Part shown: positions 6,896 to 7,510 of the stretch, piece by piece
How the letters are laid out: each line of letters begins with the position of its first letter
How positions within the stretch are numbered: the stretch's first letter is position 1
DNA from: Escherichia coli
GTDB taxonomy: Bacteria > Pseudomonadota > Gammaproteobacteria > Enterobacterales > Enterobacteriaceae
NCBI RefSeq assembly: GCF_003334335.1
Contig: NZ_QOWQ01000059.1
DNA length: 15,540 bases
Reading direction: 5' to 3' (one strand)
Translations under genes and position numbers: made by a program
The notes under the pieces: generated by a model
The model's input: only the letters and a program-made list of their open reading frames with translations
Told to the model about the DNA's origin: nothing
Databases searched by the model: none

Positions 6896-7510
6896 GATTG
6901 TCTGCTCCCCTGTCTTGTTATGGGAGCAGTATTCAGGAATAAAAACATTCATTAAAAGAATTAGTCGTTATCGCACAGATGATTTTATTCTTAGCAAAAA
7001 AACGGCTAAGGAAAGATTAAATATGCAATTACTCCGTTCTAACAATTGGGAAAATTACTACACTTCATTTTAGTGATGCATAAACAACCACATTACGAGA
7101 TTTATTACTTCATTATTTCTATCAATATCAATACATATAATAAAACTATTATATTCGCATTGTATATATCACTGTATCATTCTCAATCACTCGCATATTA
7201 CATTCACATAATGTATATAAACAATGCTTGTTCACAGAACATATTTTTTAAATGCAATTAATTGACAAACTAAATCACATCTAAATACAATGTATAAAAC
7301 AAAATAACTATACATACCAAACATACAAACACTTAACATATGAATTGCATAGAAACATTACCCAGTCGAACCCACGGGTCTGAAAGCCCTTGCTTTTCAG
7401 TTATTAGCAACATTTAACATTTATAAATTAACATCTGGCTGCGCCAGAGATTACGTCTCTGAGTGCATCGTTGTGCTTGTAGTATAATAAATAAAATGGA
7501 GTGTCATTAA
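6896..7510. promoter_or_regulatory. Large AT-rich divergent control region for tauABCD and the yaiS operon
   Basis: 615 bp without convincing coding capacity, extremely AT-rich over roughly 7040..7340. Contains a perfect TATAAT at 7483..7488 about 22 nt upstream of the yaiS GTG, and a palindrome CAGAGA-ttacg-TCTCTG at 7445..7461. The tau operon is known to be sulfate-starvation regulated by CysB/Cbl; I could not place those sites by eye. Confidence 0.5.
6902..6929 (-). promoter_or_regulatory. Perfect 8-bp inverted repeat in the tauA 5' leader whose 3' arm contains the Shine-Dalgarno
   Basis: Plus-strand CTGCTCCC (6902..6909) and GGGAGCAG (6922..6929) are exact reverse complements separated by 12 nt. 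On the tauA mRNA the arm nearest the AUG carries the GGGAG SD. Confidence 0.4.

What the first reader, a model, noticed from the sequence alone, without database searches (positions are those of the whole stretch)
6953..7510. Unusually long, extremely AT-rich divergent region between tauA and yaiS with discrete symmetric elements
About 560 bp of non-coding DNA is long for E. coli, and the stretch around 7040..7340 is among the most AT-rich in the window, with phased A/T tracts typical of curved, H-NS-bound DNA. Nearer yaiS there is an imperfect hairpin CTGAAAGC-cctt-GCTTTTCAG (about 7378..7400), a perfect palindrome CAGAGA-ttacg-TCTCTG (7445..7461), and a consensus TATAAT (7483..7488) just upstream of the yaiS SD. 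The region could hold the Cbl/CysB sites for tau, a silenced promoter for the yai operon, and possibly a small RNA.
Basis: partly seen in the sequence, partly recalled or inferred. Interest (0 to 1): 0.4.

Follow-up and report, generated by a model that had tools for sequence, protein, structure and literature searches.

The report
H-NS-silenced AT-rich tauA–yaiS spacer
The long AT-rich gap between tauA and yaiS is real, but it is an already catalogued H-NS-bound "promoter island" at the edge of an acquired gene cassette, next to the known taurine promoter; the flagged hairpin is chance-level and there is no sign of a small RNA.

Summary
The spacer is real and longer than reported: 615 bp (6896..7510), because tauA starts at 6895, not 6952. 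It is identical to E. coli K-12. GC is 24% in 7040..7340, the lowest in the window.

Published work already covers most of the interpretation:
- It is one of 78 "promoter islands", H-NS-bound in all three ChIP data sets that catalogue compared.
- RNA polymerase with RpoD binds it in vitro.
- The Cbl/CysB-dependent tauA promoter lies at the tauA end. Two data sets put the start site at 6921/6922.

New here:
- 6934..10805 is a 3.9-kb accessory segment (yaiS-yaiP-yaiX-yaiO). About 20% of E. coli genomes lack it and keep a shorter ancestral tau promoter.
- The best-conserved non-coding element is 7240..7345. It holds a near-consensus promoter, TTGACA-18-TACAAT, pointing at yaiS, and is more conserved than the flanking genes.

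- Phased A-tracts are not confirmed.
- The hairpin at 7380..7400 is no better than chance and shows no covariation.
- The palindrome at 7445..7461 is real and conserved in E. coli and E. whittamii, but absent in E. fergusonii.
- TATAAT is real but has no usable -35.
- No small RNA is supported.

Verdict: ordinary and largely already known.

The parts
5933..6895 (-). tauA coding sequence (320 aa); the true start codon is at 6895
   Evidence: RefSeq annotation of identical K-12 DNA; longest ORF runs to 6952
6896..6921 (-). tauA 5' UTR (26 nt); transcription start at 6921
   Evidence: Cappable-seq TSS 384430 (U00096.2), the only K-12 + strand TSS between 383338 and 388394. SMRT-Cappable-seq lists tauABCD TSS 385205 (U00096.3), which maps to 6922 as printed, 1 bp from the first
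6928..6933 (-). tauA -10 hexamer AATACT, ending 7 nt before the start site; the only -35 candidate is weak (TTTAAT), as expected for an activator-dependent promoter
   Evidence: Read from sequence against the mapped TSS. Invariant in the 13 aligned tauA upstream regions, which span several enterobacterial genera
6989..7033 (.). Inferred position of the Cbl footprint (-68 to -112). It holds the inverted repeat CTTAGC-N9-GCTAAG (6990..7010) and a core shared with the ancestral enterobacterial tau promoter
   Evidence: Footprint coordinates recalled from the van der Ploeg 1997 abstract (paper not held). A single Cbl site per promoter is confirmed in PMC11495319. Conservation
6934..10805 (.). 3.9-kb accessory segment: diverged tau promoter upstream part, AT-rich spacer, and yaiS-yaiP-yaiX-yaiO. 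It is absent from 'empty-site' and O157-type E. coli
   Evidence: Homology to the empty-site allele L093 ends at 6933 and resumes at 10806; allele counts; O157 allele
7049..7357 (.). Published 'promoter island' 383994_309, H-NS-bound in all three ChIP data sets compared
   Evidence: PMC3661553 Table 1. Coordinates converted from U00096.2 using the tauA start. Highest -10-like hexamer density in the window
7159..7186 (-). Promoter-like TTGAGA-16-TACAAT pointing at tauA, 238 bp upstream of the real tauA start; probably silent or spurious
   Evidence: the same pair is listed in PMC3946193. The -10 changes to TGCAAT in the other E. coli alleles. No TSS here in Cappable-seq
7240..7345 (+). Best-conserved non-coding block: A/T-rich UP-like stretch, near-consensus promoter, and the first ~48 nt of the predicted transcript
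   Evidence: 86.9% identity to E. fergusonii and 94.3% to E. whittamii, against 80 to 83% and 91 to 96% for the tauA, yaiS and yaiP coding DNA, and 45 to 55% (fergusonii) for the adjacent spacer
7262..7291 (+). Near-consensus sigma-70 promoter TTGACA-18-TACAAT (11 of 12) pointing at yaiS. Predicted start is about 7297..7299, giving a leader of about 213 nt
   Evidence: Listed as the yaiS 'constitutive promoter' under an RpoD-holoenzyme SELEX peak. Both hexamers are unchanged in E. fergusonii and in the other aligned alleles; three spacer positions vary
7298..7510 (+). Predicted long untranslated leader. Its first ~110 nt is C-rich, G-poor and unstructured, so it resembles a Rho loading site (inferred)
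   Evidence: C 20 against G 6 in 7292..7375; 113-nt folds of -6 to -12 kcal/mol with z from -0.1 to -1.8
7380..7400 (+).
   Evidence: z = 0.0. Inner G-C pairs are lost without compensation; 0 compensatory pairs. It lies in a hypervariable stretch with 72 to 75% identity between E. coli alleles
7434..7448 (.). Second perfect palindrome TCTGGC-TGC-GCCAGA, overlapping the next one by 4 nt; not conserved
   Evidence: broken in the other alleles
7445..7461 (.). Perfect palindrome CAGAGA-TTACG-TCTCTG. It extends to an 11-bp RNA stem at 7441..7466
   Evidence: -13.4 kcal/mol, z = -2.5. 94% of cells paired in 5 sequences; the one-sided changes that keep pairing do so as G-U wobble, and one pair is unpaired in 3 sequences. 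Conserved between variable flanks. Absent in E. fergusonii
7483..7488 (+). Perfect -10 hexamer TATAAT, 22 nt upstream of the yaiS start. The best -35 is CTGAGT (3 of 6, 18-bp spacer) and there is no extended -10
   Evidence: not reported by the promoter scan. Invariant in E. coli and E. whittamii; CATAAT in E. fergusonii. An RpoS-holoenzyme SELEX peak at 383868 maps to about 7483 at array resolution
7498..7513 (+). yaiS ribosome-binding site GGAG (7498..7501) and GTG start (7511..7513)
   Evidence: Sequence; the start position is conserved as GTG or TTG in E. fergusonii and Yersinia
7511..8182 (+). yaiS, a PIG-L family deacetylase, intact here at 223 aa
   Evidence: Pfam PF02585 on homologues; one base differs from MG1655 (8066 C against T, which gives TAG in K-12)

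Best explanation
The 615-bp spacer is a composite of two unrelated control regions brought together by gene acquisition.

1. The tauA-proximal ~140 bp (6896..~7033) is the sulfate-starvation promoter of tauABCD. It has a weak -35, a -10 AATACT, a start at 6921 and one Cbl site upstream. This is a diverged copy of a promoter conserved across Enterobacteriaceae.

2. The rest (~7034..7510) is the upstream region of the acquired yaiS-yaiP-yaiX-yaiO cassette. The cassette encodes a PIG-L deacetylase, a GT2 glycosyltransferase, a hexapeptide acyltransferase and the YaiO outer-membrane barrel.

3. The cassette's 24%-GC, TA-step-rich core binds H-NS. H-NS coats it and keeps both the many fortuitous -10-like sites and the one genuine, strongly conserved promoter (TTGACA-18-TACAAT, 7262..7291, with an A/T-rich upstream element) silent in laboratory conditions.

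4. Any transcript that does start there must cross a ~213-nt untranslated, C-rich, G-poor, unstructured leader. That leader is a likely substrate for Rho termination, giving a second layer of silencing.

5. The TATAAT, the Shine-Dalgarno sequence and the GTG form the conserved yaiS-proximal end.

Shown here or in the literature: the anatomy, the conservation pattern, H-NS and RNA polymerase binding, the tauA start site, and the accessory nature of the segment. Inferred: that 7262..7291 is the real yaiS promoter, that H-NS is what silences it, and that Rho acts on the leader.
For: H-NS and polymerase binding
- Listed as a promoter island and H-NS-bound in all three ChIP data sets compared.
- RpoD holoenzyme binds the spacer in vitro. 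The authors list exactly the two promoter-like sites found independently by the scan here, and flag the spacer 'HNS'.

Transcription
- The tauA TSS is at 6921/6922 in two independent data sets. No other K-12 + strand TSS occurs within several kb.
- SMRT-Cappable-seq lists no yaiS or yaiP transcript.

Composition
- GC is 0.24, with the highest TANNNT density in the window.

Acquired cassette
- The empty-site and O157 alleles define 6934..10805 as accessory.
- The same four-gene cassette occurs next to type II secretion genes in a Citrobacter and on a Yersinia contig, each time with its own AT-rich upstream DNA.
- The ancestral tau promoter is conserved in Citrobacter, Klebsiella, Enterobacter, E. 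albertii and others.

Conserved promoter
- 7240..7345 is 87% (fergusonii) and 94% (whittamii) identical, more than the flanking coding DNA, while neighbouring spacer DNA is 45 to 55% identical in fergusonii.

Leader
- It shows a C>G skew and no stable fold.
Against: - There are no direct data for the yaiS direction. The stored copy of the Cappable-seq table is cut before the minus strand. The dRNA-seq paper and the H-NS-mutant TSS tables were not available.
- No hns-mutant expression value for yaiS was found.
- The 18-bp spacer is suboptimal for a sigma-70 promoter.
- A sigma-54 site inside yaiS (7609..7624), together with a 7.6-fold value in that study's yaiS expression column, offers another route of expression.
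- The Lang-type H-NS high-affinity motif is not enriched.
- The Rho step rests on composition alone.
- Conservation of 7240..7345 could reflect binding of some other protein rather than promoter function.
Confidence: 0.7

Rival explanations
1. Proximal promoter with an operator. The TATAAT at 7483..7488 is the working yaiS promoter (sigma-70 or sigma-S). The 17-bp palindrome CAGAGA-N5-TCTCTG, centred about 42 bp upstream of its predicted start, is the binding site of an unidentified dimeric regulator acting as a class II-type activator or a repressor. This could coexist with the main explanation.
For: - The -10 is perfect and invariant in E. coli and E. whittamii.
- The palindrome is conserved between variable flanks and is rarer than chance.
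- The RpoS-holoenzyme SELEX peak maps to about 7483.
Against: - The -35 matches only 3 of 6 at an 18-bp spacing and there is no extended -10. The promoter scan does not report it.
- TATAAT also occurs by chance elsewhere in the spacer.
- The palindrome and its surroundings are absent from E. fergusonii, although the cassette, the Shine-Dalgarno sequence and the start codon are conserved there.
- No regulator gene is linked to the cassette.
- SMRT-Cappable-seq lists no transcript here.
- The one-sided changes that keep pairing do so as G-U wobble, which fits RNA at least as well as a DNA site.
Confidence: 0.2
2. Small RNA or transcription attenuator. The conserved promoter at 7262..7291 drives a ~100-nt RNA with a conserved 5' end that stops at the 7380..7400 hairpin, acting either as a trans-acting sRNA or as a leader terminator.
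For: - A strong conserved promoter is followed by ~48 conserved transcribed nucleotides.
- A CUG...CAG hairpin followed by UUAUU sits at the homologous place in E. coli, E. whittamii and, in shortened form, E. fergusonii.
Against: - The hairpin is only -6 kcal/mol with z = 0, and the consensus fold is -1.75 kcal/mol with no compensatory pair.
- The U-tract is poor and no + strand terminator is found.
- There is no Rfam match at E <= 10.
- No such transcript appears in SMRT-Cappable-seq, and no sRNA is annotated here in K-12.
Confidence: 0.07
3. Functionless filler. Apart from the tau promoter, the AT-rich DNA is merely the scar of cassette insertion, tolerated because H-NS coats it, with no specific promoter or regulatory element.
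For: - Large parts of the spacer evolve very fast: 58 to 75% identity between E. coli alleles whose flanking genes are 95 to 100% identical.
- IS1 insertions and IS1-mediated deletions recur here.
- K-12 carries a nonsense mutation in yaiS and an IS2 in yaiX.
Against: - The block 7240..7345 and the yaiS-proximal 44 nt are more conserved than the coding DNA.
- The cassette ORFs are intact in this window and in three other species.
Confidence: 0.12
4. Intrinsically curved DNA. Helically phased A-tracts bend the spacer, and the bend is what recruits H-NS.
For: Very high A+T content. The general literature links H-NS to curved DNA (quoted in PMC3946193).
Against: A-tract count equals the shuffle expectation, and the 10 to 11.2-bp periodicity is at or below the shuffles for both the A-tract and the AA/TT indicators in three sub-regions. 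The composition is dominated by TA steps, which are flexible rather than bent.
Confidence: 0.05

Closest known systems
E. coli 'promoter islands' (Panyukov & Ozoline 2013, PMC3661553; 78 loci)
   Same: This very spacer is entry 383994_309. It has a dense array of promoter-like signals on both strands, binds RNA polymerase, gives very little transcript, is occupied by H-NS, and is associated with acquired genes.
   Different: Nothing essential differs. Added here: the island contains one element (7240..7345) under clear purifying selection, so it is not uniformly degenerate. The exact borders of the acquired segment are also defined.
H-NS xenogeneic silencing of AT-rich acquired DNA, with Rho as a second layer (for example the long AT-rich csgD-csgB, leuL-leuO and nanC-fimB spacers named)
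   Same: A long AT-rich divergent spacer, H-NS-bound, next to accessory surface-related genes, with strong core promoter elements that are silent in the laboratory.
   Different: No anti-silencing regulator is known here. H-NS dependence of yaiS expression and Rho action on the leader are inferred, not shown.
Cbl/CysB-dependent sulfate-starvation promoters (tauABCD, ssuEADCB)
   Same: The tauA-proximal 140 bp is this known promoter: a single upstream Cbl site, a weak -35, and a start 26 nt before the ATG.
   Different: In K-12-type strains, positions -13 to -100 are a strongly diverged version of the promoter conserved in other enterobacteria and in about 20% of E. coli (roughly 50% identical by eye over -100 to -13). 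It arrived with the yai cassette.
Intrinsic terminators and Hfq-type small RNA genes
   Same: A promoter followed by a hairpin and a few U residues.
   Different: The stem is weak, the U-tract is poor, and there is no covariation, no Rfam family and no transcript. This does not qualify.

Membership tests
Promoter island (Panyukov & Ozoline) | A region of at least 300 bp with an exceptionally high density of promoter-like start signals on both strands | tested here: met
   TANNNT count of 27 per 300 nt is the maximum in the window (median 7). The locus is listed by the authors as 383994_309, which maps to window 7049..7357.
Promoter island (Panyukov & Ozoline) | Binds RNA polymerase | tested here: met
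   Literature look-up only: an RpoD holoenzyme SELEX-chip peak in the yaiS/tauA spacer and an RpoS holoenzyme peak at 383868. There was no way to test binding directly.
Promoter island (Panyukov & Ozoline) | Very low productive transcription | tested here: inconclusive
   Towards tauA there is no TSS inside the island. SMRT-Cappable-seq lists no yaiS or yaiP transcript. The minus-strand part of the Cappable-seq table was not stored, and dRNA-seq data were not held.
Promoter island (Panyukov & Ozoline) | H-NS occupancy | tested here: met
   Literature look-up: class 'A', meaning bound in the Grainger, Kahramanoglou and Oshima data sets, and the HNS flag in genomic SELEX. The sequence-level H-NS motif is not enriched.
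Promoter island (Panyukov & Ozoline) | Association with horizontally acquired genes | tested here: met
   6934..10805 is absent from the empty-site and O157-type alleles. The cassette is found in other genomic contexts in Citrobacter and Yersinia.
Cbl/CysB-activated tauABCD promoter | Mapped transcription start with a -10 and a weak -35 | tested here: met
   TSS 384430 (U00096.2) and 385205 (U00096.3) map to window 6921/6922. AATACT lies at -12..-7.
Cbl/CysB-activated tauABCD promoter | A single Cbl footprint upstream of -35 (-112 to -68), plus CysB sites | not testable with these tools
   The primary paper is not held, so the coordinates come from memory of its abstract. A single Cbl site per promoter is confirmed by a review. 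The mapped interval 6989..7033 is the best-conserved part of the tau-side spacer.
Cbl/CysB-activated tauABCD promoter | LysR-type dyad in the binding site | tested here: inconclusive
   CTTAGC-N9-GCTAAG is present at 6990..7010. The right arm reads GCAAAG in the other E. coli alleles and in E. whittamii.
Small RNA gene or intrinsic terminator | A G+C-rich stem followed by a U-tract, more stable than chance | tested here: not met
   7380..7400 folds at -6 kcal/mol with z = 0.0. No + strand terminator is found in 6700..7800.
Small RNA gene or intrinsic terminator | Structure supported by covariation, or a match to a known family | tested here: not met
   0 compensatory pairs and a consensus energy of -1.75 kcal/mol. 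No relevant Rfam match at E <= 10 and none at gathering thresholds in the spacer.
Curved DNA with phased A-tracts | A-tracts repeated with a period of 10 to 11 bp | tested here: not met
   Periodogram power is at or below the shuffles, and the tract count equals expectation.
Sigma-54 promoter of yaiS (RegulonDB list; Zhao 2010) | A TGGCAC-N5-TTGCW element upstream of the gene | tested here: not met
   Within the spacer there are only 3-mismatch matches, at chance frequency. The published site TGGCGCATCGCTTGCT is at 7609..7624, inside the yaiS reading frame.

The most novel reading that the evidence does not exclude
The conserved 106-bp block (7240..7345), the G-poor unstructured leader and the conserved stable hairpin at 7441..7466 together form a dedicated switch for the acquired yaiSPXO surface-glycan cassette. 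In this reading, a near-consensus promoter is held off by H-NS and Rho and released by an unknown signal or regulator. Alternatively, the block makes a 5'-conserved regulatory RNA. A related point is that acquiring the cassette replaced the resident Cbl-dependent tau promoter upstream of -13 with a diverged copy, so taurine regulation may differ between K-12-type, 'empty-site' and O157-type E. coli.
Probability: 0.15. Interest if true: 0.45.

Novelty: already known. Interest (0 to 1): 0.2.

Why it matters
For genome annotation, little changes. The spacer is a textbook case of an AT-rich, H-NS-coated boundary of acquired DNA, it is already catalogued, and the tau promoter beside it has been characterised since 1997.

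Three points from this re-examination are useful:
- The island is not uniformly degenerate. One promoter-containing block is under stronger constraint than the neighbouring genes, which gives a precise target for testing how a silenced cassette could be switched on.
- The tauA upstream region exists in three forms in E. coli: with the yai cassette, with a two-component/uhpC island, or empty. K-12-type strains carry a diverged tau promoter, and E. coli B derivatives have an IS1 inside the inferred Cbl site. Results on taurine regulation from K-12 may therefore not transfer to all strains.
- The test for phased A-tracts was negative, which shows that high A+T content alone should not be read as curvature.

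Tried and rejected
- Rfam at gathering thresholds over the whole window gave only two REP-derived naRNA4 hits far from the spacer. At E <= 10 on 6850..7560, the only hit was a meaningless miRNA match.
- The tRNA/tmRNA scan of the spacer found nothing, so the GC-richer patch at 7360..7400 is not a tRNA remnant.
- No sigma-54 promoter lies in the spacer; the published site is inside yaiS.
- The H-NS high-affinity motif TCGATAAATT gave two 2-mismatch matches in the spacer and is not enriched in the window.
- The A-tract periodicity test was negative.
- Leader peptide: a 25-codon ORF (7340..7417) starts at a conserved ATG and stays open in all E. coli and E. whittamii alleles (19 codons in E. fergusonii). 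However, a second frame is open for 14 to 30 codons in the E. coli and E. whittamii alleles (8 in E. fergusonii), the peptide is frame-shifted between alleles, and there is no Shine-Dalgarno sequence. This was rejected as evidence.
- The inverted repeat CTGCTCCC/GGGAGCAG around the tauA Shine-Dalgarno sequence has its 5' arm upstream of the mapped start, so it is not in the mRNA. The arm also varies in other genera.
- I first read the O157 comparison as showing that homology ends at the -10 hexamer. A multiple alignment with E. whittamii as an intermediate shows the K-12-type -13..-100 region is a diverged homologue, not unrelated DNA.
- The conserved block was not found upstream of the cassette in Yersinia or Citrobacter; scores were at chance.
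- Literature not available: van der Ploeg 1997, Thomason 2015 dRNA-seq and the supplement of Singh 2014. The ROSE and 3'-end-mapping supplements hold nothing on yaiS or tauA.
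Full report
WHAT THE WINDOW IS

The window is E. coli DNA in the order hemB, tauDCBA (- strand), yaiS-yaiP-yaiX-yaiO, frmRAB (+ strand), as shown by ORFs and the RefSeq annotation of matching records. The tauA-yaiS spacer is identical to K-12 MG1655 over all 615 bp. The window is not MG1655 itself. Its yaiS lacks the K-12 nonsense codon (8066 C against T) and its yaiX has no IS2. Window and K-12 (NC_000913.3) coordinates are related by window = 6895 + (385232 - K-12 position).

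CHECKING THE OBSERVATION

The annotated tauA start is 6895, so the spacer is 6896..7510, or 615 bp. It is by far the longest spacer among the annotated genes of the window.

GC is 0.304 overall and 0.243 in 7040..7340, against 0.499 for the window. The 200-nt minimum of the whole window (0.225) lies at 7101..7300.

All three named elements are at the stated coordinates. Their statistical standing differs:
- The 7380..7400 hairpin is no more stable than shuffled sequence: -6 kcal/mol, z = 0.0.
- The palindrome 7445..7461 extends into an 11-bp stem at 7441..7466: -13.4 kcal/mol, z = -2.5.
- With the overlapping palindrome 7434..7448, it gives two GC-containing perfect 6-bp inverted repeats in 156 nt. 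Only 0.7% of shuffles reach this, and the test was post hoc.
- TATAAT occurs twice on this strand of the spacer, so the hexamer alone means little.

The claim of phased A/T tracts fails. The number of A-tracts equals the shuffle expectation, and power at 10 to 11.2 bp is at or below the shuffles. What marks the core instead is TA steps and -10-like hexamers (27 TANNNT per 300 nt, window median 7) and a strong C>G skew on the yaiS-sense strand (C 54, G 19, p = 5e-5).

WHAT IS ALREADY PUBLISHED ABOUT THIS DNA

Panyukov and Ozoline list it as one of 78 'promoter islands': 383994_309, yaiS(-)/tauA(+), which maps to window 7049..7357. They mark it as bound by H-NS in all three ChIP data sets they compared and as associated with predicted foreign genes (PMC3661553).

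Shimada et al. found an RpoD-holoenzyme SELEX peak in this spacer and flagged it as containing an H-NS site. They list TTGACA-18-TACAAT for yaiS and TTGAGA-16-TACAAT for tauA (PMC3946193). These are exactly the two sites the consensus scan found here, at 7262..7291 (+) and 7186..7159 (-). An RpoS-holoenzyme peak at 383868 maps to about 7483 at array resolution (PMC5493296).

The tauA start is known from two genome-wide data sets:
- Cappable-seq reports 384430 (U00096.2), the only start on that strand between 383338 and 388394.
- SMRT-Cappable-seq reports 385205 (U00096.3) for tauABC(D). It lists no yaiS or yaiP transcript.

These map to window 6921 and 6922 respectively (1 bp apart as printed). 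That is 26 nt before the ATG, with AATACT at -12..-7.

Cbl activates PtauABCD through a single site (review PMC11495319). The footprint of -112 to -68 in van der Ploeg et al. 1997 is quoted from my memory of the abstract, because the paper is not held. It maps to about 6989..7033. So the Cbl site sits at the tauA edge, not in the AT-rich core.

yaiS is also on RegulonDB's sigma-54 list. The published site, TGGCGCATCGCTTGCT, is at 7609..7624, inside the present yaiS reading frame and outside this finding.

WHERE THE DNA CAME FROM

A scan of one genome per species with TauA returned 80 loci. Only E. whittamii has yaiS next to tauA. In Citrobacter, Klebsiella, Enterobacter, Kluyvera, Raoultella, E. 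albertii and others, the 120 to 140 bp upstream of tauA match the sequence found in E. coli O157:H7, not K-12.

In O157:H7 the tauA spacer is 302 bp with GC 0.44. It is followed by a response regulator, a MASE1 histidine kinase and a uhpC-like gene.

Within E. coli the counts are as follows:
- 4255 of 5426 complete genomes have at least 80% of the K-12-type spacer.
- 1073 genomes have the ancestral-type promoter. Of these, 451 carry the full O157-type spacer.
- Most of the other roughly 620 matched only its tauA-proximal part. The one inspected has tauA directly next to frmR, with a 305-bp spacer of GC 0.41.

Against that empty site, window homology ends at 6933 and resumes at 10806. So 6934..10805 is a 3.9-kb accessory segment.

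A multiple alignment shows that K-12-type positions -13 to -100 are a diverged homologue of the ancestral tau promoter. E. whittamii is intermediate, and the Cbl-footprint core is the best-kept part.

The four-gene cassette (PIG-L deacetylase, GT2 glycosyltransferase, hexapeptide acyltransferase, YaiO barrel) also occurs elsewhere:
- next to tauA in E. fergusonii, with a 670-bp spacer of GC 0.31;
- next to type II secretion genes in a Citrobacter;
- on a Yersinia enterocolitica contig.
Each time it has AT-rich but unrelated upstream DNA. The unusual length and composition of the spacer therefore belong to the acquired cassette, not to tau.

WHAT IS CONSERVED INSIDE THE SPACER

Two E. coli haplotype classes exist: at least 95% identity (3785 records) and 80 to 90% (1039 records), with almost nothing between. 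Between them the flanking genes are 95 to 100% identical. The spacer, by contrast, falls to 58 to 72% in 7045..7163 and to 72 to 75% in 7344..7432.

With E. whittamii and E. fergusonii added, identity to the window by segment is as follows:

| Segment | E. fergusonii | E. whittamii |
|---|---|---|
| tauA coding | 81.6% | 90.9% |
| tau promoter 6896..7032 | 76.6% | 88.3% |
| 7033..7239 | 55.3% | 76.8% |
| 7240..7345 | 86.9% | 94.3% |
| 7346..7466 | 45.3% | 83.7% |
| yaiS coding | 80.1% | 91.1% |

The block 7240..7345 is thus more conserved than the genes on either side. It contains an A/T-rich stretch (ATATTTTTTAAAT), TTGACA, an 18-bp spacer, TACAAT and about 48 nt downstream. The same 11-of-12 promoter is present in E. 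fergusonii at the same relative place.

The hairpin and both palindromes have no counterpart in E. fergusonii. The palindrome 7445..7461 is kept in all E. coli alleles and in E. whittamii, between variable flanks. In the extended stem, 94% of cells pair. The one-sided changes that keep pairing do so as G-U wobble, one pair is unpaired in three sequences, and there is no two-sided change. With only five sequences the shuffle control has no power. The TATAAT, the Shine-Dalgarno sequence and the start codon are conserved; in E. fergusonii they read CATAAT and TTG.

RNA READINGS

From a start near 7298, the leader to yaiS would be about 213 nt. Its first 113 nt fold weakly in all five homologues: -6 to -12 kcal/mol, z from -0.06 to -1.8. 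The consensus fold is a single 7-bp helix of -1.75 kcal/mol with no compensatory pair. No Rfam family matches, no tRNA is present, and no + strand terminator is found.

An unstructured, C-rich, G-poor, untranslated RNA is what Rho prefers. That step is my inference from composition.

MOST LIKELY MECHANISM

The spacer joins two control regions. The tauA-proximal ~140 bp is the Cbl/CysB promoter. The remainder is the upstream region of an acquired cassette. Its AT-rich core is coated by H-NS, which silences both the fortuitous promoter-like sites and the one conserved strong promoter aimed at yaiS. A long Rho-prone leader and a stable hairpin lie between that promoter and the gene.

Binding of H-NS and RNA polymerase, the tauA start, the acquired status and the conservation pattern are shown by tool results or published data. 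Three things are inferred: that 7262..7291 is the working yaiS promoter, that H-NS is the cause of its silence, and that Rho takes part.

The main rival, which could coexist, is a proximal promoter at TATAAT controlled through the palindrome centred near -42. It suffers from a missing -35 and from the absence of the palindrome in E. fergusonii.

COMPARISON WITH WHAT IS KNOWN, AND VERDICT

The locus is a listed member of the promoter-island set and behaves as a standard H-NS-silenced boundary of acquired DNA. The tau promoter is a known Cbl target. It fails the tests for a small RNA gene, an intrinsic terminator, phased-A-tract curvature and a sigma-54 promoter within the spacer.

The finding is therefore real but ordinary and largely already explained. 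Its more specific suggestions are either unsupported (curvature, the first hairpin, an sRNA) or only weakly supported (the palindrome, the TATAAT). The conserved promoter block and the three-allele structure of the tauA-frmR interval are modest new details worth a note, not a discovery.

Noticed in passing
window 6934..10805; loci L005, L093: The interval between tauA and frmR exists in three forms in E. coli. The yaiS-yaiO cassette form covers at least 80% of the spacer in 4255 of 5426 genomes. A response-regulator/MASE1-kinase/uhpC island form (O157:H7 type) is found in 451 genomes. An 'empty' tauA-frmR junction was seen in the one genome inspected out of about 620 that matched only the tauA-proximal part of the ancestral promoter. 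The last two forms keep the ancestral tau promoter found across Enterobacteriaceae.
   Followed up: yes
window ~7428 (L091); 110 nt and 34 nt upstream of the tauA ATG (L092, L006): IS1 recurs in this spacer. There is a simple insertion near 7428 in a clinical isolate. An E. coli B derivative (NEBExpress) has an IS1 110 bp upstream of tauA with yaiS-yaiX deleted, which cuts the inferred Cbl site. Another strain has an IS1 34 bp upstream, which removes the tauA -10.
   Followed up: partly
window 8066: A single base separates this window from MG1655 in yaiS (C here, T in K-12, giving CAG against TAG). YaiS is therefore an intact 223-aa PIG-L deacetylase here but truncated to 185 aa in K-12. yaiX is also uninterrupted here, with no IS2.
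   Followed up: yes
window 7609..7624 (+): A near-consensus sigma-54 element, TGGCGCATCGCTTGCT (1 mismatch), lies inside the yaiS reading frame about 100 nt after the start. It is the 'yaiS sigma-54 promoter' of Zhao et al. 2010. A transcript from it would miss the catalytic AHPDD motif region.
   Followed up: partly
window 13322..13399 (-) and 15428..15503 (+): Two Rfam naRNA4 (CssrE) hits above the gathering score. A related sequence also sits in the tauA-frmR spacer of the empty-site allele.
   Followed up: no
window 7340..7417 (+): A 25-codon ORF starts at an ATG inside the conserved block and stays open in all E. coli and E. whittamii alleles despite two compensating 1-nt indels (19 codons in E. 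fergusonii). There is no Shine-Dalgarno sequence, and another frame is open for 14 to 30 codons in the E. coli and E. whittamii alleles (8 in E. fergusonii), so it is probably chance.
   Followed up: yes
window 7023..7031 and 7252..7260: The 9-mer ATGCAATTA occurs twice: once at the distal edge of the inferred Cbl site and once just upstream of the conserved TTGACA. Both copies are conserved, exactly in E. whittamii and with one change in one copy in E. fergusonii. A third, inverted copy at 7343..7351 is specific to the K-12 allele. No binding protein can be named.
   Followed up: partly
window 7045..7163 and 7344..7432: Two stretches of the spacer differ by 25 to 42% between E. coli haplotypes whose flanking genes differ by 0 to 5%. 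The population is bimodal, with almost no genomes at intermediate identity. The cause (old allelic exchange or fast local evolution) was not resolved.
   Followed up: partly
literature (PMC3661553 Table 1): The spacers next to two other sulfur-regulon genes, ssuE/elfA and cysB/ymiA, are also on the list of 78 promoter islands.
   Followed up: no
window 8048..8167 (-): The small protein gene ykiC (39 aa, annotated in K-12) lies antisense to the 3' part of yaiS and overlaps the position of the K-12 nonsense codon.
   Followed up: no
window 2001..2300: A second AT-rich stretch (GC 0.27 to 0.30) lies just upstream of hemB, next to autotransporter pseudogene remnants.
   Followed up: no
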